Shown piece after piece: positions 9,803-14,795 of a stretch of DNA of 20,500 nucleotides. Positions within the stretch are counted from its first letter, which is position 1. Each line of letters begins with the position of its first letter. The position numbers and the translations under genes are program-made. The notes beneath the pieces were generated by a model. That model was not told where the DNA came from, made no database searches, and saw nothing but the letters and a program-made list of their open reading frames with translations. The stretch is from a virus (lineage: Duplodnaviria > Heunggongvirae > Uroviricota > Caudoviricetes): the IMG/VR virus record IMGVR_UViG_3300015185_000049. The stretch is one strand, 5' to 3'.

Positions 9803-9994
9803 TTCCTCCCCCTTGACTAATTCATTAACACATAAACTGTGTAGTGCACGGAATAAATTGCCTTTCTGACGTCATCACTGACAATTTTTCTGTTATGGAC
9901 TATTCCTAATATAGTATGAAAGTTCTTTAAGTGATCGGTCGTAATCATCTATCTTTCATACTTACTCTCAACTATCAAAAGTACAGGATTGATT

Positions 9995-10519
9995 ATGAAG
10001 TTATGGCCTGTGTTGACTGGCATTGCACTCTCTTTCACTCTTATAGCATGTAAGGCCCCGACACCACCTAAAGGTGTGCAGCCGATTACAAATTTTGACG
10101 CCAACCGCTACCTCGGAAAATGGTATGAAATAGCTCGCCTCGAGAACCGGTTCGAACGTGGTCTGGAACAGGTCAGCGCTACTTATGGAAAACGGAACGA
10201 CGGAGGGATTCGTGTACTTAACCGTGGATACGATCCAACGAAAAATAAATGGAGCGAGAGCGAAGGTAAAGCATACTTTACTGGAGATACTAAAACTGCA
10301 GCGTTGAAGGTTTCGTTTTTTGGCCCCTTCTATGGTGGCTATAATGTAATCAAACTGGATGATGAGTATAAGTATGCTCTTGTTAGTGGTTCGAACAGAG
10401 AATACCTATGGATTCTGGCAAGGACCCCAACTATTCCAGATAAAGTAAAAGCAGACTATGTGCGAACCGCTCAAAAGTTGGGATTCAATGTCAATGAATT
10501 ATTATGGGTTAAACAATAA
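9995..10519 (+). CDS. blc: Bacterial lipocalin (Blc-like outer-membrane lipoprotein)
   Basis: Lipoprotein signal with lipobox LIAC, then the lipocalin signature FDANRYLGKWYEIARLENRFERG and downstream SFFGPFYGGYNV...YLWILARTP, closely resembling E. coli Blc. The ORF track starts at a TTG at 9989; ATG at 9995 is the likelier start. Confidence 0.85.
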   Translation: MKLWPVLTGIALSFTLIACKAPTPPKGVQPITNFDANRYLGKWYEIARLENRFERGLEQVSATYGKRNDGGIRVLNRGYDPTKNKWSESEGKAYFTGDTKTAALKVSFFGPFYGGYNVIKLDDEYKYALVSGSNREYLWILARTPTIPDKVKADYVRTAQKLGFNVNELLWVKQ

Positions 10520-10674: not shown

Positions 10675-11052
10675 TTATTTCGAACAATCAGCATCCATCT
10701 CCAATCGGAGATCCAATACCATCAGCATGCCCTCCACTACGCCCTCAGCTTTCTGGAGCATCCTGCCAACCCAACAATCAGATCGCCCATGCTTACGTGC
10801 AAGCGCCATAAAAGTCATGCCGCCGACATAATAGTCCACCAATAAACCATGTAAATCGCTGTTGTTTTTTCTCAGGCGAGCCATACATTCACAAATGATC
10901 ATCGCGTCATCGTCACAGCATTGCGGACGAGATCTTACTTTTGAAGGAATTAATCCCTTAAAACCAGCGGCAATGGACGACCAGGTCACATCTTCATGAT
11001 TATTAGCCGCCCATGCCCCCCAACGCTCAAGAACCATCTGAATATCACGCAT
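10675..11052 (-). CDS. Antitermination protein Q (phage 82 / QuuD-type)
   Basis: [76 protein letters not shown]... closely matches my recollection of the QuuD/QuuQ family, including the Cys-rich segment. The gene is immediately upstream of the promoter/terminator module. Confidence 0.85.
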
Positions 11053-11069
11053 CAACTTACTCCACATAA

Positions 11070-12158
11070 TTAGGCCAGCACACCAATTGCCAGCGCGCGA
11101 TCGATAAATCGAAAAATCAGCTCCAGTTGGGAGCCATACTTCTCTTCAAATGCCACGGTATCCGTATGCAACTCGTCGTGATGCTTTCTGCACAAAGGCA
11201 ACACAAAGAGATCATGTGCTTTGGTTCCCATTCCGCCCTGCCCGTGACCAATCAGATGATGCGGATCGTCGGCTGGCATCCCGCAGCAAGCACACGGCTG
11301 TGTCTTAACCCAGCGTGTGTATTTCTCCTTAACCCAACGGTGACGTTTAGGCAGCTTCATGAAAGATTCCGGAGACTCTGGATCAACGGTGATGCTTACC
11401 ACCGTCTTTTCCTGTGGTGGTTTTTGTTGCTGGTGGGCGTAAGGCAACGGTGCAAGATTTTTTGTGCGTTGTTTCAATATGCTGGTGGCGGCCTGCTCTC
11501 CCGGTACGATGTCGCTCTCGCGGTACACCGAGCAGATTTTTTCCGCTGGTAATCCCAGCGAACGACGTAATACCGCTTCCGGTAGCGCGTCCGCCACCTG
11601 ATTGCGGAGCGCCCACCAGGATAATTCAGCCAGAGATAATTCACGCTCCTGCGTACCGCTTATTGCGTGACCGATGACGTCAATCATCCATGCTGACAGG
11701 TTTTGATGAGCAAGTTGCTCGAGTGATTCGGATGTCTGGTCACGCAGTTGGTTGTCGCAGTGCCAGCACAACACCATTGCGCCGGTACCATAACGGTGAA
11801 TGACGGTTTCGCTGTGATGATAATCGCCGTGCGGCCACTGGCAGGATTTAATATGGCGCAACAGCCAGTCAGACAATGCACCAGCACCACCAGCAGCACG
11901 AATCACCCGTGCGTTACTGAAAAACGGCAGCAATGTTTTGTCTTCCACCAGCGGCTGGCGAACGGCAGGAACGACCCCGGACGGCAGATTACGCATGCTT
12001 TTCGGTTCCGGCTCCACCAGTACCCGGGTATTGTGGAATACCGGCATGGATTCACGGCCTAGTTTAAGGACCACCAGCCCAAGCTCTGGCACCAGAACAG
12101 GTCTAAGTAATACCCGCACGTTACCTCCAGATCCGTTGCTGGAAAGTGCGGGACGCAC
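11070..12158 (-). CDS. DUF968 (YdfU-like) protein with C-terminal HNH-like Cys/His motif
   Basis: 362-aa ORF directly upstream of Q, the position of ydfU in Qin. The C-terminus has CACCG...[32 protein letters not shown], reminiscent of a His-Me finger / HNH zinc motif. The start is uncertain; an internal Met near 12047 would remove the overlap with the upstream ORF. Confidence 0.7.
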
Positions 12159-12399
12159 GTGGTGGGCGTTCGGAATAAGGCAGCCTGACAGAGATTATCC
12201 AGTGCCGATAGTCGAGACTGAGAGCTTTCTTAACCTCGAACCCGCGCCTGCGGTAAGAATGAATCAGCCATTCGGCCTGTTCTTCAGTGCATGGGGGATG
12301 CTGGTACCAATCAGATTTAAATGCGTGAGAGCGCCGCCCGTGCCTGCTGGCAAAGACGGCAGAATCATCAGAATTGTGTAATTTGGTATCGTGCGCCAT
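12121..12399 (-). CDS. Hypothetical protein (rem-position ORF)
   Basis: 92-aa ORF between the cassette terminator and the DUF968 gene. Its identity as the Qin rem homolog is not verified. Confidence 0.35.
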   Translation of the reverse strand: MAHDTKLHNSDDSAVFASRHGRRSHAFKSDWYQHPPCTEEQAEWLIHSYRRRGFEVKKALSLDYRHWIISVRLPYSERPPRASRTFQQRIWR

Positions 12400-12469
12400 C
12401 GGTTGTCTCTGCTGGCGCAGCAGGTGCCAGTTGTTCAGGCTGGCCTGTGGATTGTAAACCAGAATACGT

Positions 12470-12494
12470 AAAACAAAAACCCGCCGAGGCGGGT
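12470..12494 (-). terminator. Rho-independent terminator at the 3' end of the two-gene cassette
   Basis: Hairpin ACCCGCC-GAG-GCGGGT (plus 12479-12494) followed on the minus strand by TTTTTGTTTT (plus A-run 12470-12478), 12 nt after the stop of the 381-aa gene. Confidence 0.6.
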
Positions 12495-12505
12495 ATGAAT
12501 GAGAA

Positions 12506-13651
12506 TTATTTTTGTTTTATGGTAAATGAAATAACATTGTCAGAATGAATCATATCTGATTCTTTAAATCGTGTAATTGCAGATAACTCATTTAAGGGAA
12601 GAGCAAAGATATCAGTTAACTCAGTTACCTTTATGATTGAATGCTTATCAAGAAGTAAAAGTAACTTATTAAGTAACTCAGGCTCTTCTTTTGGGATTGC
12701 ATCATCTAACGGCTCCCTACGATGGAATGGCGCTAATTGCTTAAATATATAGCTTTTCTGATTATCGCTGATTAACTTAAGGCTATGACTCCTCATGGCA
12801 ATACTACCGATAGATGTAATCCAACGTAGTTTTAATCGTTCTAACGCTGATAAATTTGGACTATAAAATTCACGCCCGAAAGTGGTGGCTGGCATTAAAA
12901 AGCTGGAGGCAAAATAATCGGCCTGCAACTCCACCAGGTCGAATAATTCTTTATCATTCAGGTAGTCATCCTCCACTGCCCTATGCATAATTAAATGGCC
13001 AAGTTCATGAGCAAGACTAAATCGCATGCGAACAGCCGTCTTCGAGCTATCTAACATAATTAAAGGCCGCCCATTATGCCAGAACGAAAAGGCATCAACT
13101 TTCTCACCAGAAGGTAAATGAGAAACCACGATTCCTTTATTTTCAACAAGTCTAGTTAAATTGAGTATTGGACCATCACCTAACCCCCAAAAACGCCTTA
13201 ATTGGGTGGACATATCCTCAATATCAGATAGAGACAGAACCTCAAAATCAATAATATCGAATTCAGGCAGAACCACATCTGGTAATTGAGCATATTTTAG
13301 ACATTCATCCAATATTAATGCCGCCCAACGCCCACGTGTTTTCCCTGTAACTCGAGCCTTTTTGGTCGCAGTTGAACGACTTCTAAAATGAATCGCCCCC
13401 TCCAGAGATGGAGAAGCACTGGAGGCTAAGAAAAATCGTTCTGGAAATCCTAACACCTTGGCTATTGCAGAAAGTGTATCAGCAGAGGGAGACTTCAACC
13501 CCTTCTCAAATGACGAAATAGCTTGTCTTGAAATATTGAGCACTCTGGCAAGTTCAGCCATCGTCAACCCTTTTGCCTCTCTTGCCTCCTCAAGGCGACG
13601 AGGATTAAACGATTTATCAGTAAATGGTGTTTGTGCGATATTCATGCTCAT
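12506..13651 (-). CDS. Fusion protein: N-terminal XRE-type HTH plus ImmA/IrrE-family zinc metallopeptidase (HEXXH), with a roughly 130-aa C-terminal extension
   Basis: 381 aa. The N-terminus LTMAELARVLNISRQAISSFEKG is a classic XRE HTH; the central SLAHELGHLIMH is an HExxH zinc-peptidase motif in an ImmA/IrrE (COG2856)-like context. Start overlaps the upstream gene's stop by 4 bp (ATGA). AT-rich. Confidence 0.8.
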   Translation of the reverse strand: MSMNIAQTPFTDKSFNPRRLEEAREAKGLTMAELARVLNISRQAISSFEKGLKSPSADTLSAIAKVLGFPERFFLASSASPSLEGAIHFRSRSTATKKARVTGKTRGRWAALILDECLKYAQLPDVVLPEFDIIDFEVLSLSDIEDMSTQLRRFWGLGDGPILNLTRLVENKGIVVSHLPSGEKVDAFSFWHNGRPLIMLDSSKTAVRMRFSLAHELGHLIMHRAVEDDYLNDKELFDLVELQADYFASSFLMPATTFGREFYSPNLSALERLKLRWITSIGSIAMRSHSLKLISDNQKSYIFKQLAPFHRREPLDDAIPKEEPELLNKLLLLLDKHSIIKVTELTDIFALPLNELSAITRFKESDMIHSDNVISFTIKQK

Positions 13652-14262
13652 GATTGCTGTGATTTAATTATTTGTTCGGTAAGAATCTTGATTTTATCTT
13701 CAATCTCAGAATCCACATTTTCTGCTTCAACTTCTACCATCGTCATAATTGGTAAAGACTCAGTATAAAGAATCCCGTAATTATCCGAAGAAGGAACAGT
13801 TAAATTCAGTTTGGACAAGTGCTGATTACTGCCATCATGTAACATATAAACATGTCCACCAGACGCTCTCCCATCCAGGGAGTCGGCATTTTCATCCCCA
13901 AAATTCAATTCATAATTTTGATTAGCGTAAACAGCTCTATACAATGCCTGCTTAGGAAGTGGCGCATTACCCGATAAATGATGTGCCGTCATTTTCCAGT
14001 TGTTCGAGTGAATCGCAATGTGTTTACAATTTTTAGCAGCATTGCTACCGACTTCAAAATCCAGCCCCACACGCTTAGCCGCATTCTCAAGCAATGCATC
14101 GGCATAAAACCAGCGCAAATATGACTGTGCTTGAGCCCAAAAAGAACCAAACTCTTTTGCCTTCATATGCGAATGAAGATAAGCCTGTGCTAACGCGATC
14201 GAAAGCTCTTTGCGGCACTCCTTGTCATATGCTTCTAACAACTGTTGAGATAAATTCTGCAT
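13648..14262 (-). CDS. Protein of unknown function, first gene of the cassette (candidate toxin or effector partner)
   Basis: 204-aa ORF with an SD-like AAGGA upstream and translational coupling to the HTH-peptidase gene. No motif recognised; acidic C-terminal tail. Confidence 0.65.
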   Translation of the reverse strand: MQNLSQQLLEAYDKECRKELSIALAQAYLHSHMKAKEFGSFWAQAQSYLRWFYADALLENAAKRVGLDFEVGSNAAKNCKHIAIHSNNWKMTAHHLSGNAPLPKQALYRAVYANQNYELNFGDENADSLDGRASGGHVYMLHDGSNQHLSKLNLTVPSSDNYGILYTESLPIMTMVEVEAENVDSEIEDKIKILTEQIIKSQQS

Positions 14263-14279
14263 GACCGTAATATCCTTGT

Positions 14280-14335
14280 TGTTTTGGTGTCAACCATATT
14301 TCCATTTAACATCGACTTTGTCAACCAGATAGATG
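14280..14335 (-). promoter_or_regulatory. Candidate cassette promoter with direct-repeat operator-like sites
   Basis: On the minus strand there are two GGTTGACA elements (plus-strand TGTCAACCA at about 14287-14295 and 14318-14326, 31 bp apart), the first being a perfect -35 hexamer, upstream of AAGGA and the ATG at 14262. Confidence 0.3.
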
Positions 14336-14338
14336 CTA

Positions 14339-14360
14339 GAAAAACCCGCCGAAGCGGGTT
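14339..14360 (-). terminator. Rho-independent terminator (3' end of hok mRNA)
   Basis: Hairpin CCCGCC-GAA-GCGGGT (plus about 14345-14359) followed on the minus strand by TTTTT, about 70 nt downstream of the hok stop. Near-identical to the hairpin at 12479-12494. Confidence 0.6.
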
Positions 14361-14428
14361 AAGCGCGGGTGCATTGAGGATGCCTGACTCATCAGAGGTG
14401 GCGAGGGATTTCTCCCCCGCCTAGTCTC

Positions 14429-14584
14429 TTACTCCTCAGGTTCGTAAGCTGTGAAGACAGCGACCTCCGTCTGGCCGGTTCGGATTCGTACCTCGCAGAG
14501 GTCTTTCCTCGTTACCAGTGCCGTCACTATGACGGTTAAACAGATGACGATCAGGGCGATTAACATCGCCTTTTGCTGCTTCAT
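14429..14584 (-). CDS. hokD: Hok-family type I toxin (HokD/RelF-like)
   Basis: MKQQKAMLIALIVICLTVIVTALVTRKDLCEVRIRTGQTEVAVFTAYEPEE, 51 aa, has the Hok transmembrane and periplasmic pattern and matches HokD as I recall it. Confidence 0.9.
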   Translation of the reverse strand: MKQQKAMLIALIVICLTVIVTALVTRKDLCEVRIRTGQTEVAVFTAYEPEE

Positions 14585-14641
14585 AGCCTGCTTCTCCTTG
14601 CCTTCCGGCACGTAAGAGGCTAACCTACATGTGTCTAGCAT
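14429..14641 (-). CDS. mok: mok (modulator of killing) reading frame overlapping hok
   Basis: In-frame 19-codon upstream extension of hok (MLDTCRLASYVPEGKEKQA...), as in hok/sok loci where mok translation is coupled to hok. Confidence 0.55.
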   Translation of the reverse strand: MLDTCRLASYVPEGKEKQAMKQQKAMLIALIVICLTVIVTALVTRKDLCEVRIRTGQTEVAVFTAYEPEE

Positions 14642-14700
14642 GAAATTGGCCTCAGATTAATGTTAAGCGTCTTGCAGGACGCGTAATGTTAACTGGGGCT
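14598..14700 (+). ncRNA. sok: Candidate Sok-like antisense RNA with promoter
   Basis: Plus-strand TTGCCT (14598-14603), 17-nt spacer, TAACCT (14621-14626), antisense to the mok start region. Boundaries are not determined and no experimental support is available. Confidence 0.3.
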
Positions 14701-14795
14701 TTTCTCTATCTGCCGTTGGTGTTCATGCCTGAGGCAGATAGCCTCAAGCACCCGCAGCAATTCTACTTAACTCACGTCACCTCGCCAATATAAAA

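What the first reader, a model, noticed from the sequence alone, without database searches (positions are those of the whole stretch)
12470..14360. Near-identical terminator hairpins bracket the cassette, suggesting insertion by recombination at a terminator
Seen in sequence: AAAAACCCGCCGAGGCGGGT (12476-12494) and AAAAACCCGCCGAAGCGGGT (14340-14359) are the same roughly 20-nt terminator core in the same orientation, one after the cassette and one after hok. Inference: a duplicated terminator flanking AT-rich cargo is a classic moron footprint. The ancestral arrangement was probably hok, terminator, then the rem-like ORF, and the cassette arrived carrying or copying the terminator.
Basis: partly seen in the sequence, partly recalled or inferred. 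Interest (0 to 1): 0.5.

Follow-up and report, generated by a model that had tools for sequence, protein, structure and literature searches.

The report
Terminator hairpin duplicated around defence moron
Two copies of the terminator hairpin that ends the hok toxin gene bracket a 1.8-kb anti-phage toxin-antitoxin cassette inserted in a lambda-like E. coli prophage, and several other cargo genes sit at the same spot bracketed the same way, so this hairpin acts as a recurrent joint for gene insertion.

Summary
AAAAACCCGCCGAGGCGGGT (12475-12494, not 12476) and AAAAACCCGCCGAAGCGGGT (14340-14359) are 19/20 identical direct repeats, with none expected by chance. All genes here are on the minus strand. 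The right copy (H1) is the intrinsic terminator of hok mRNA. The left copy (H2) follows a two-gene operon with its own promoter and 40% GC, against 52-55% in the flanks. PADLOC calls the operon RosmerTA (RmrT, 204 aa; RmrA, 381 aa, HTH plus M78 peptidase).

The downstream ORF is not rem-like; rem is another cargo of this slot in K-12.

At least five other cargos occupy the slot bracketed by the same hairpin: two more RosmerTA variants, a Fic/Doc module, an HTH plus ImmA pair, and a lipoprotein. In 1.37 Mb of hok-linked lambdoid DNA the hairpin occurs only as H1 or H2. A second site with a TGCG-loop hairpin behaves the same, and there H2 copies the local loop.

The hairpin is therefore the recombination joint. 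Whether it is copied or exchanged by short homology is unresolved. This is a moron footprint resembling the PeSL cassettes of T4-type phages.

The parts
12475..12494 (-). H2, the distal hairpin copy. Minus strand ACCCGC-CTCG-GCGGGT-TTTTT, 11 nt after the rmrA stop codon. Terminates the cassette operon ahead of the 92-aa ORF, DUF968 and Q genes.
   Evidence: terminator scan; -12.1 kcal/mol
12506..13651 (-). rmrA-like antitoxin and regulator, 381 aa, with an XRE helix-turn-helix and a Peptidase_M78 (ImmA/IrrE) domain.
   Evidence: Pfam HTH_3 2.4e-16 and Peptidase_M78 9.7e-19; PADLOC RmrA 5.5e-102; PHROG 2439
13648..14262 (-). rmrT-like toxin candidate, 204 aa, no Pfam domain. Overlaps rmrA by 4 nt (ATGA).
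   Evidence: PADLOC RmrT 7.5e-10, a weak match; PHROG 35814 full length
14288..14329 (-). Cassette promoter and operator region: -35 TTGACA at 14324..14319, 17-nt spacer, -10 AAATAT at 14301..14296, and two GGTTGACA boxes (14326..14319 and 14295..14288). The layout is conserved in RmrT homologues of 51-93% identity in other contexts.
   Evidence: sequence; conservation across L139-L143, L012 and L173; transcribed in the Tritos lysogen (PMC9928086). The promoter assignment is an inference.
14340..14359 (-). H1, the hok-proximal hairpin copy. Minus strand ACCCGC-TTCG-GCGGGT-TTTTT. It is the intrinsic terminator of hok mRNA and the only copy present at empty sites.
14367..14379 (-). Putative fbi element of hok mRNA, CCUCAAUGCACCC, complementary to the 5' end GGGUGCUUGAGG at 14753..14742. 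It places H1 as the 3'-terminal stem-loop of hok mRNA.
   Evidence: sequence read against the hok/sok architecture from established knowledge; an inference
14429..14584 (-). hokD-type toxin gene, 51 aa.
   Evidence: Pfam HOK_GEF 3e-23; RefSeq annotation of homologues
14579..14753 (-). hok leader and sok regulatory region.
   Evidence: Rfam RF01794, 115.8 bits, E 6.6e-27
12121..12399 (-). Conserved 92-aa ORF (PHROG 1212), the first backbone gene after the slot. It is not Rem.
   Evidence: annotated as a hypothetical protein in all compared genomes
12452..12463 (-). Native box TCTGGTTTACAA, 11 nt after the T-run of H2. It is 11/12 identical to the cassette's -35 box TCTGGTTGACAA (14329..14318), which lies 10 nt after the T-run of H1. 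This may extend the flanking repeat.
   Evidence: 5 of 2000 shuffles reach the score; unexplained
11070..12158 (-). DUF968 protein (YdfU-like, HNH-like motif), part of the backbone.
   Evidence: Pfam DUF968 1.4e-76; sub-threshold HNHc_6 and RecA_dep_nuc matches
10675..11067 (-). Late-gene antiterminator Q, the downstream gene that H2 insulates from cassette transcription.
   Evidence: Pfam Phage_antitermQ 3.4e-50; the insulation role is an inference

Best explanation
H1 (14340-14359) is the intrinsic terminator that ends hok mRNA in a lambdoid prophage. A 1,845-bp moron carrying its own promoter and a RosmerTA-type toxin-antitoxin defence operon (rmrT-rmrA) lies immediately after the T-run of H1. 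It is followed by H2 (12475-12494), a second copy of the same terminator. The insertion unit is the cassette plus one hairpin, 1,865 bp, and related prophages without it have a single hairpin.

The hairpin itself is the recombination joint. The same bracketed structure recurs with at least five other cargos at this hok terminator and with three cargos at a second site that has a slightly different hairpin. In each case the distal copy resembles the local hairpin.

The most likely route is recombination or template switching at the hairpin plus T-run, carried out by general phage or host recombination functions rather than by a cassette-encoded enzyme. The arrangement is analogous to PeSL-mediated cassette shuffling in T4-type phages. 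That route is inferred, not shown.

The arrangement also makes functional sense, again by inference. H1 preserves the 3' end that hok mRNA regulation needs. H2 stops transcription from the constitutively active cassette from running into the 92-aa ORF, DUF968 and Q genes of the repressed prophage.
For: Shown here:
- The two copies are 19/20 identical and in direct orientation, with none expected by chance.
- Empty sites have one hairpin with matching flanks.
- The cassette is 40% GC against 52-56% in the flanks.
- The cassette proteins match RmrA at 5.5e-102 and RmrT at 7.5e-10.
- The promoter layout is conserved in distant homologues.
- The identical cassette in phage Tritos is transcribed 14- to 30-fold above prophage background in the lysogen (PMC9928086).
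- In 138 hok-anchored loci (1.37 Mb) the 17-mer occurs 124 times as H1, 28 times as H2 and never elsewhere on either strand.
- Six cargo types are bracketed by H1 and H2: three RosmerTA variants, a Fic/Doc module, an HTH plus M78 pair and a lipoprotein.
- At site B there are 29 empty loci with one TGCG-loop hairpin and three cargo types bracketed by that hairpin. One of these cargos is an 87%-identical relative of this cassette.
- No transposase, integrase or terminal inverted repeat lies within the cassette.
Against: - The exact 20-mer is a generic terminator found in about 100 unrelated phage contexts, so independent acquisition of a similar terminator cannot be strictly excluded.
- The loop of H2 in this window (CTCG) differs from H1 (TTCG), as expected if the cassette brought its own copy.
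- Homology with the L139 relative includes the upstream hairpin but stops at the rmrA stop codon, so what travels with the cassette is ambiguous.
- Some cargos of the same slot (rem, L002 type, L011 type) have no second copy.
- Polarity (insertion or deletion) cannot be read from the sequence alone.
- IMG/VR sampling was truncated at 120 rows, and many loci are near-identical prophages.
- Site B may be homologous to the hok site rather than independent (weak isrK-like matches at both).
Confidence: 0.7

Rival explanations
1. Convergence with no causal role for the hairpin. The cassette arrived by illegitimate recombination with its own, independently evolved terminator. That terminator resembles the hok terminator only because ACCCGC-UUCG-GCGGGU-U5 is a generic near-optimal terminator. 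Only insertions that kept both terminators survived selection.
For: The 20-mer occurs in more than 120 IMG/VR contigs, about 100 of them unrelated to hok. H2 here has a different loop base from H1. Relatives of the cassette in other contexts carry other terminators at the same position (L139 ACCCGC-TTTAT-GCGGGT, L141, L143). There is a strong functional need for a terminator ahead of Q.
Against: There are no copies elsewhere in 1.37 Mb of lambdoid DNA, yet 28 copies lie exactly at cargo ends. Six unrelated cargos all end in the hok-type hairpin, five of them identical to H1 in the 17-mer. At site B the cargos end in the site-B loop variant instead. The cassette boundaries coincide with the hairpin edges to the nucleotide.
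Confidence: 0.12
2. Reversed polarity. The two-hairpin, cargo-bearing state is older in this backbone, and the single-hairpin 'empty' sites arose by deletion through recombination between H1 and H2. The hairpin pair would then be a deletion substrate rather than an insertion scar.
For: Direct repeats of 20 nt promote deletion. Empty sites retain TCTGGTTTACAA, 11/12 identical to the RosmerTA -35 box, at a similar offset from the hairpin; this could be a promoter scar. The window's distal-flank variant (AATACGTAAAAC) was seen only with cargo, in the window and in L173.
Against: The cargos are AT-rich relative to the backbone and mutually unrelated, so each had to enter at some point. The empty state is far more common and more diverse, whereas this cassette is at least 99.6% identical in all 41 genomes that carry it, which suggests recent spread. 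This reading complements the main explanation more than it excludes it.
Confidence: 0.1
3. Dedicated site-specific capture. The hairpin ACCCGC-N4-GCGGGT is an attachment site recognised by a phage enzyme acting in trans, for example a structure-specific nuclease of the nin region such as RusA or the HNH-like DUF968 protein. The enzyme cuts at the base of the extruded hairpin or cruciform, so that repair duplicates the palindrome around incoming DNA. This would be an integron-like cassette system.
For: The joints are precise and recurrent at two sites sharing the same stem. At site B some duplications equal the palindrome alone, with no T-run after H1 (L264, L280). A 24-nt mini-insert is bracketed by hairpin copies (L287). 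The DUF968 gene lies directly downstream of the slot and has sub-threshold HNH and Ref-like matches.
Against: No recombinase was identified. The duplicated length varies from 16 to 23 nt. Several cargos in the same slot lack a second copy. Short-homology recombination explains the same data without a new enzyme.
Confidence: 0.08

Closest known systems
Morons of lambdoid phages (HK97 gene 15 type; reviewed in PMC3594210)
   Same: An extra transcription unit between backbone genes. It has deviating GC, its own promoter and terminator, is expressed from the repressed prophage, and is absent from close relatives.
   Different: Here the terminator is a second copy of the upstream gene's terminator, and the same joint is reused by many cargos. 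Moron regulatory sequences were classically not thought to mediate mobility (PMC2839356, discussion).
PeSL (promoter-early stem-loop) mobile regulatory cassettes of T4-type phages RB49 and phi1 (PMC2839356)
   Same: Small ORF cassettes bracketed by repeated copies of a terminator stem-loop next to a sigma-70 promoter. Insertion, deletion and replacement map to these repeats, and no dedicated recombinase is known. In the three RosmerTA variants the hairpin sits directly upstream of a conserved promoter box.
   Different: The phage group differs (temperate lambdoid prophages rather than T4-type). The repeat is about 20 nt (terminator only) rather than a roughly 50-nt promoter-plus-stem-loop composite. 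The site is the terminator of a type I toxin gene. No mini-circles have been shown.
RosmerTA anti-phage toxin-antitoxin system (Millman et al., bioRxiv 10.1101/2022.05.11.491447)
   Same: A two-gene operon: a toxin of unknown function followed by an antitoxin with a Zn-peptidase domain. Both proteins match PADLOC RmrT and RmrA models.
   Different: The RmrT match is weak (7.5e-10, partial). Neither defence nor toxicity was tested for this variant.
K-12 Qin prophage hokD-rem-ydfU region
   Same: The same backbone: hokD, its hairpin, a variable slot, the 92-aa ORF, DUF968 (ydfU) and Q.
   Different: In K-12 the slot holds rem and has only one hairpin copy. K-12 hokD lies next to relBE.
Integron gene cassettes with attC hairpin sites (own knowledge)
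   Same: Promoter-proximal capture of single cassettes bounded by a folded palindromic site. The unit is the cargo plus one site.
   Different: No integrase is present. The hairpin is a plain intrinsic terminator, the cassettes bring their own promoters, and there are no arrays.
Defence hotspots in P2-like prophages and P4-like satellites (PMC9122126)
   Same: A fixed position in a prophage backbone where diverse defence or TA systems replace one another.
   Different: The phage family and the position differ. Those hotspots are defined by flanking core genes, not by a duplicated terminator.

Membership tests
Moron (lambdoid phage accessory transcription unit) | Present in some genomes and absent at the same position in close relatives | tested here: met
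   41 genomes carry the cassette. Up to 2138 genomes have the contiguous empty junction (an upper bound, because nearby pieces are merged). Flank-only matches occur in 4819 of 5426 genomes. Empty loci are aligned.
Moron (lambdoid phage accessory transcription unit) | Base composition different from the neighbouring genes | tested here: met
   GC is 0.40 in the cassette against 0.52-0.56 in the flanks.
Moron (lambdoid phage accessory transcription unit) | Own promoter, expressed from the repressed prophage | tested here: met
   A TTGACA-17 nt-AAATAT layout with GGTTGACA boxes is conserved in homologues. The identical cassette in Tritos is transcribed 14- to 30-fold above prophage background (PMC9928086). 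The transcription start was not mapped.
Moron (lambdoid phage accessory transcription unit) | Own terminator | tested here: met
   H2 is a hairpin plus T-run 11 nt after the rmrA stop. Termination in vivo was not tested.
RosmerTA | Antitoxin RmrA with an HTH and a Zn-metallopeptidase (M78) domain | tested here: met
   PADLOC RmrA 5.5e-102 over the full length; Pfam HTH_3 and Peptidase_M78; HELGH motif.
RosmerTA | Adjacent upstream toxin RmrT in one operon | tested here: met
   A 204-aa ORF overlaps rmrA by 4 nt. PADLOC RmrT 7.5e-10, weak, covering residues 47-161.
RosmerTA | Toxicity neutralised by the antitoxin, and protection against phage | not testable with these tools
   Requires expression and plaque assays.
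hok/sok type I toxin-antitoxin locus | Hok-family toxin with a sok/leader RNA region, a 3' fbi element and a terminal stem-loop | tested here: met
   Pfam HOK_GEF 3e-23. Rfam sok 115.8 bits. The sequence at 14367-14379 is complementary to the mRNA 5' end and is followed by H1 (sequence; an inference).
PeSL-type mobile regulatory cassette | Repeated stem-loop terminator adjacent to a promoter, bracketing facultative ORFs, with indels mapping to the repeats | tested here: met
   Six cargo types at the hok site and three at site B are bracketed by the local hairpin, and empty sites have one copy.
PeSL-type mobile regulatory cassette | Homology to the PeSL consensus of T4-type phages, and occurrence in T4-type hyperplastic regions | tested here: not met
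   The host element is a lambdoid prophage (Q, DUF968 and hok; Tritos). The repeat is a different 20-nt terminator. The relation is therefore an analogue, not membership.
PeSL-type mobile regulatory cassette | Circular excision products | not testable with these tools
   Needs outward-facing PCR or long-read data from induced lysogens.
Transposable element with target-site duplication | Element-encoded transposase or integrase, and terminal inverted repeats | tested here: not met
   Only rmrT and rmrA are encoded between the hairpins. No terminal inverted repeat pairs the cassette ends.

The most novel reading that the evidence does not exclude
The terminator hairpin ACCCGC-N4-GCGGGT may be a dedicated capture site rather than a passive patch of homology. 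Under this reading lambdoid phages run an integron-like cassette system. A nin-region structure-specific nuclease (the HNH-like DUF968 protein next to the slot, or RusA/Rap) would cut the extruded hairpin, so that incoming TA or defence cassettes are inserted with duplication of the palindrome. That would explain why cargos at two sites are bracketed by copies of the local hairpin.
Probability: 0.1. Interest if true: 0.8.

Novelty: new variant of a known kind. Interest (0 to 1): 0.45.

Why it matters
The mechanism of moron acquisition in temperate phages has remained undefined and is usually attributed to rare illegitimate recombination. Here a single 20-nt terminator is the reproducible joint for at least six different cargos, most of them toxin-antitoxin or defence modules, in prophages present in most E. 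coli genomes. A second site behaves the same way.

This gives a concrete, testable handle on how defence genes are shuffled between lambdoid prophages. The tests are hairpin-dependent excision and capture, and dependence on the phage recombination genes. It also gives a practical rule for finding new accessory or defence genes: look between duplicated copies of the hok terminator. For this window alone the result is modest: a RosmerTA moron, already known to be expressed in phage Tritos, with a clear insertion footprint.

Tried and rejected
- A genome-contig scan for relatives of RmrT found 27 pattern hits, none confirmed by tblastn. No additional bacterial contexts were obtained.
- The Rfam match to a plastid group II intron at 12474-12629 (27 bits against a gathering score of 140) was rejected as noise.
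- The Rfam isrK matches at the hok 3' UTR plus H1 (26 bits) and at site B (21 bits) are both far below the gathering score of 50. They are treated as an architectural resemblance only.
- The 'rem-like' label for the 92-aa ORF was rejected: BLASTP finds no alignment to K-12 Rem.
- A transposon or IS explanation was rejected: no transposase and no terminal inverted repeats.
- REP/BIME-type dispersed repeats were considered from memory. This idea was rejected because the hairpin never occurs elsewhere in 1.37 Mb of lambdoid DNA.
- Retro-insertion of the cassette's own transcript was rejected because the inserted unit includes the -35 region, which lies upstream of the transcript.
- Literature searches found no description of this joint (hok with moron, terminator and lambdoid; hokD with defence hotspot; morons with duplicated hairpin). 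The library is limited to open-access papers, so absence is weak evidence.
- PADLOC gave no hit for the Fic/Doc, M78-only and lipoprotein cargos, so 'defence hotspot' is shown only for the RosmerTA variants.
Full report
**1. Observation**

The two sequences exist as described. The pattern AAAAACCCGCCGARGCGGGT, searched with up to three mismatches on both strands, matches only 12475-12494 and 14340-14359. Shuffled sequence gave no matches. The repeat finder reports them as a 20-nt direct repeat, 95% identical, 1865 nt apart.

All genes in the region are on the minus strand. On that strand both copies read ACCCGC-YTCG-GCGGGT-TTTTT, a classic intrinsic terminator.

**2. Anatomy**

Reading along the minus strand, the order is as follows.

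| Feature | Coordinates | Evidence |
|---|---|---|
| hok leader / sok region | 14753..14579 | Rfam sok, 115.8 bits |
| hokD-type toxin gene | 14584..14429 | Pfam HOK_GEF 3e-23 |
| 3' UTR element complementary to the mRNA 5' end (fbi-like) | 14379..14367 | sequence; inference |
| Hairpin H1 | 14359..14340 | |
| Promoter with two GGTTGACA boxes | 14329..14288 | |
| 204-aa ORF | 14262..13648 | |
| 381-aa ORF (HTH_3 plus Peptidase_M78), overlapping the 204-aa ORF by 4 nt | 13651..12506 | |
| Hairpin H2, 11 nt after the stop codon | 12494..12475 | |
| Conserved 92-aa ORF | 12399..12121 | |
| DUF968 protein | 12158..11070 | |
| Antiterminator Q | 11067..10675 | |

PADLOC assigns the two cassette proteins to RosmerTA: RmrA at 5.5e-102 over the full length, and RmrT at 7.5e-10, a weak match. 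[quoted passage not shown]

The cassette is 40% GC, against 52-56% in the flanks.

**3.

The flanks of the cassette match 4819 of 5426 complete E. coli genomes, but only 41 carry the cassette. It is always in this context and always at least 99.6% identical.

Prophages without it (L001, L004) read left flank, one hairpin, right flank. Each flank aligns with the corresponding flank in the window. The contiguous empty junction is present in up to 2138 genomes. This is an upper bound, because nearby pieces are merged.

The 92-aa ORF is not Rem: BLASTP finds no alignment. In K-12 Qin, rem is a separate cargo lying between hok's hairpin and this ORF, with only one hairpin copy.

**4. Is the hairpin a common dispersed repeat?**

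The answer depends on where one looks.

- The exact 20-mer is a generic terminator. Identity of the two copies alone is therefore weak evidence.
- Within lambdoid DNA the picture is different. I examined 138 loci anchored on the hok 3' UTR, 1.37 Mb in total. The 17-mer AACCCGCCGAAGCGGGT (up to one mismatch, both strands) occurs 124 times as H1 and 28 times as a second copy within 4 kb downstream of hok. It occurs nowhere else.

**5. A recurrent joint**

The second copies bracket at least six different cargos, all 39-43% GC:

- this RosmerTA cassette;
- a second RosmerTA variant (L012), inserted between hok and rem;
- a third RosmerTA variant (L173), on the same backbone variant as the window;
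- an 820-bp Fic/Doc module with a small upstream ORF (L125, L209, L115), which has three different distal flanks;
- an HTH plus M78 pair (L155);
- a 130-aa lipoprotein (L005 type).

Other cargos of the slot (rem, the L002 type, the L011 type) have a single copy. The duplicated stretch is the hairpin plus the A/T-run and varies from about 20 to 23 nt.

**6. A second site**

An 87%-identical relative of this cassette (L139) lies in a nin region that lacks hok. Homology to the window runs from 2 nt before H1 to the rmrA stop codon.

That relative is bracketed by two copies of AACCCGCTGCGGCGGGTTTTT, the same stem with a TGCG loop. Twenty-nine loci have the same two flanks joined by one TGCG hairpin. 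Two further cargo types there are also bracketed by this local hairpin, and a 24-nt mini-insert is as well.

The distal copy therefore follows the local hairpin: TTCG-type at hok and TGCG-type at site B, even for the same cassette family. This favours a target-derived or homology-exchanged H2 over an independently carried terminator.

Three caveats apply:

- In the window the loop of H2 is CTCG rather than TTCG.
- Site B may be evolutionarily related to the hok site, since both give sub-threshold isrK-like matches.
- The loci are not independent samples.

**7. Mechanism**

These points are shown:

- the joint lies at the hairpin;
- the cassette is an autonomous unit with a promoter layout conserved across homologues of 51-93% identity;
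- the identical cassette in phage Tritos of strain LF82 (100% over 2051 nt) is transcribed 14- to 30-fold above prophage background in the lysogen, next to a very highly expressed hokD (PMC9928086, Table 1).

These points are inferred:

- Cargo enters or leaves by recombination or template switching at the hairpin plus T-run, using general phage or host functions. The cassette encodes no recombinase and has no terminal inverted repeats.
- H1 must be kept because hok mRNA needs its 3' end.
- H2 is selected because it prevents read-through from a constitutively active promoter into Q.

The closest precedent is the PeSL cassette system of T4-type phages. There, repeated promoter-plus-stem-loop units bracket ORFans and yield mini-circles (PMC2839356). 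That paper contrasts PeSLs with lambdoid morons, whose regulatory sequences were not thought to drive mobility. The present data suggest that, at this site at least, they do.

**8. Rivals**

- Convergent generic terminators with selection only (0.12).
- Reversed polarity, in which empty sites are deletions between H1 and H2 (0.10). This is partly complementary to the main explanation. It is supported by a 12-nt box in the native flank that is 11/12 identical to the cassette's -35 box at a similar offset.
- A dedicated hairpin-specific capture enzyme (0.08).

**9. Verdict**

The window itself shows an ordinary but unusually clean moron footprint around a known type of defence system.

The broader pattern is a terminator hairpin serving as a reusable joint for TA and defence cassettes in very common E. 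coli prophages. I did not find this described in the searchable literature. I rate it a new variant of a known kind, of moderate interest.

Noticed in passing
window 12452-12463 and 14318-14329: A 12-nt box, TCTGGTT(T/G)ACAA on the minus strand, lies 10-11 nt after the T-run of both hairpins. One copy is the cassette's -35 box or operator. The other is native sequence upstream of the 92-aa ORF and is also present in empty sites. The match is 11/12, and 5 of 2000 shuffles reach the score. It may be a scar of an earlier RosmerTA promoter, or extra homology used for insertion.
   Followed up: partly
window 14339-14420 (minus strand); L139 3867-3923: There are sub-threshold Rfam matches to the Salmonella prophage sRNA IsrK (26 and 21 bits, gathering score 50). 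They fall over the hok 3' UTR plus H1 and over the sequence upstream of the site-B hairpin. This hints that the two insertion sites, and perhaps IsrK, share an origin in a hok 3' end.
   Followed up: partly
L142 (IMG/VR 2713896789_000013), flanks of the rmrTA homologue: A RosmerTA homologue whose RmrT is 56% identical is bracketed by a diverged direct repeat of about 45 nt. The repeat consists of a different terminator plus about 25 nt of downstream sequence (CCTTTTTTRTWTCCGCGCCACRCCCGGC). This is a third context with terminator duplication.
   Followed up: partly
L182, L217 and L225 (hok terminator); L287 (site B): Small inserts lie inside or beside the hairpin itself. In L182, L217 and L225 the hok terminator is interrupted in its loop or stem by about 30 nt. 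In L287 a 24-nt insert is bracketed by two copies of CCCGCTGCGGCGGGT.
   Followed up: no
L139 5790-5945: The cargo at site B carries, after rmrA, a second hairpin (ACCCGC-TTTAT-GCGGGT). This is followed by what looks like the 3' end of a C5 cytosine methyltransferase gene (peptide ...IPPPFAEALVRANLP..., identified by eye only). The cassette therefore appears to have travelled with a fragment of a neighbouring gene.
   Followed up: no
window 9989-10519 (+ strand): A 176-aa ORF with a lipoprotein signal and a bacterial lipocalin (Blc)-like sequence lies just beyond Q, in the opposite orientation and in a low-GC stretch (0.37-0.47). It may be another moron. The identification is by eye only.
   Followed up: no
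window 11070-12158 (minus strand): The DUF968 protein directly downstream of the insertion slot has sub-threshold matches to HNH nuclease (HNHc_6, 3.3e-5) and to the RecA-dependent nuclease Ref (0.005). It is a candidate recombination-stimulating function next to a recombination hotspot.
   Followed up: no
window 10675-11067 compared with L290 (phage Tritos) 3905-4657: The window's Q antiterminator is 130 aa. Phage Tritos carries the identical cassette and flanks but has a 250-aa Q. The cassette-bearing segment therefore sits in mosaic backbones.
   Followed up: no
L264 and L139, last bases before the distal hairpin: Two unrelated cargos at site B both end in ATTCA immediately before H2. The distal repeat copy may therefore extend a few bases upstream of the hairpin.
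   Followed up: no
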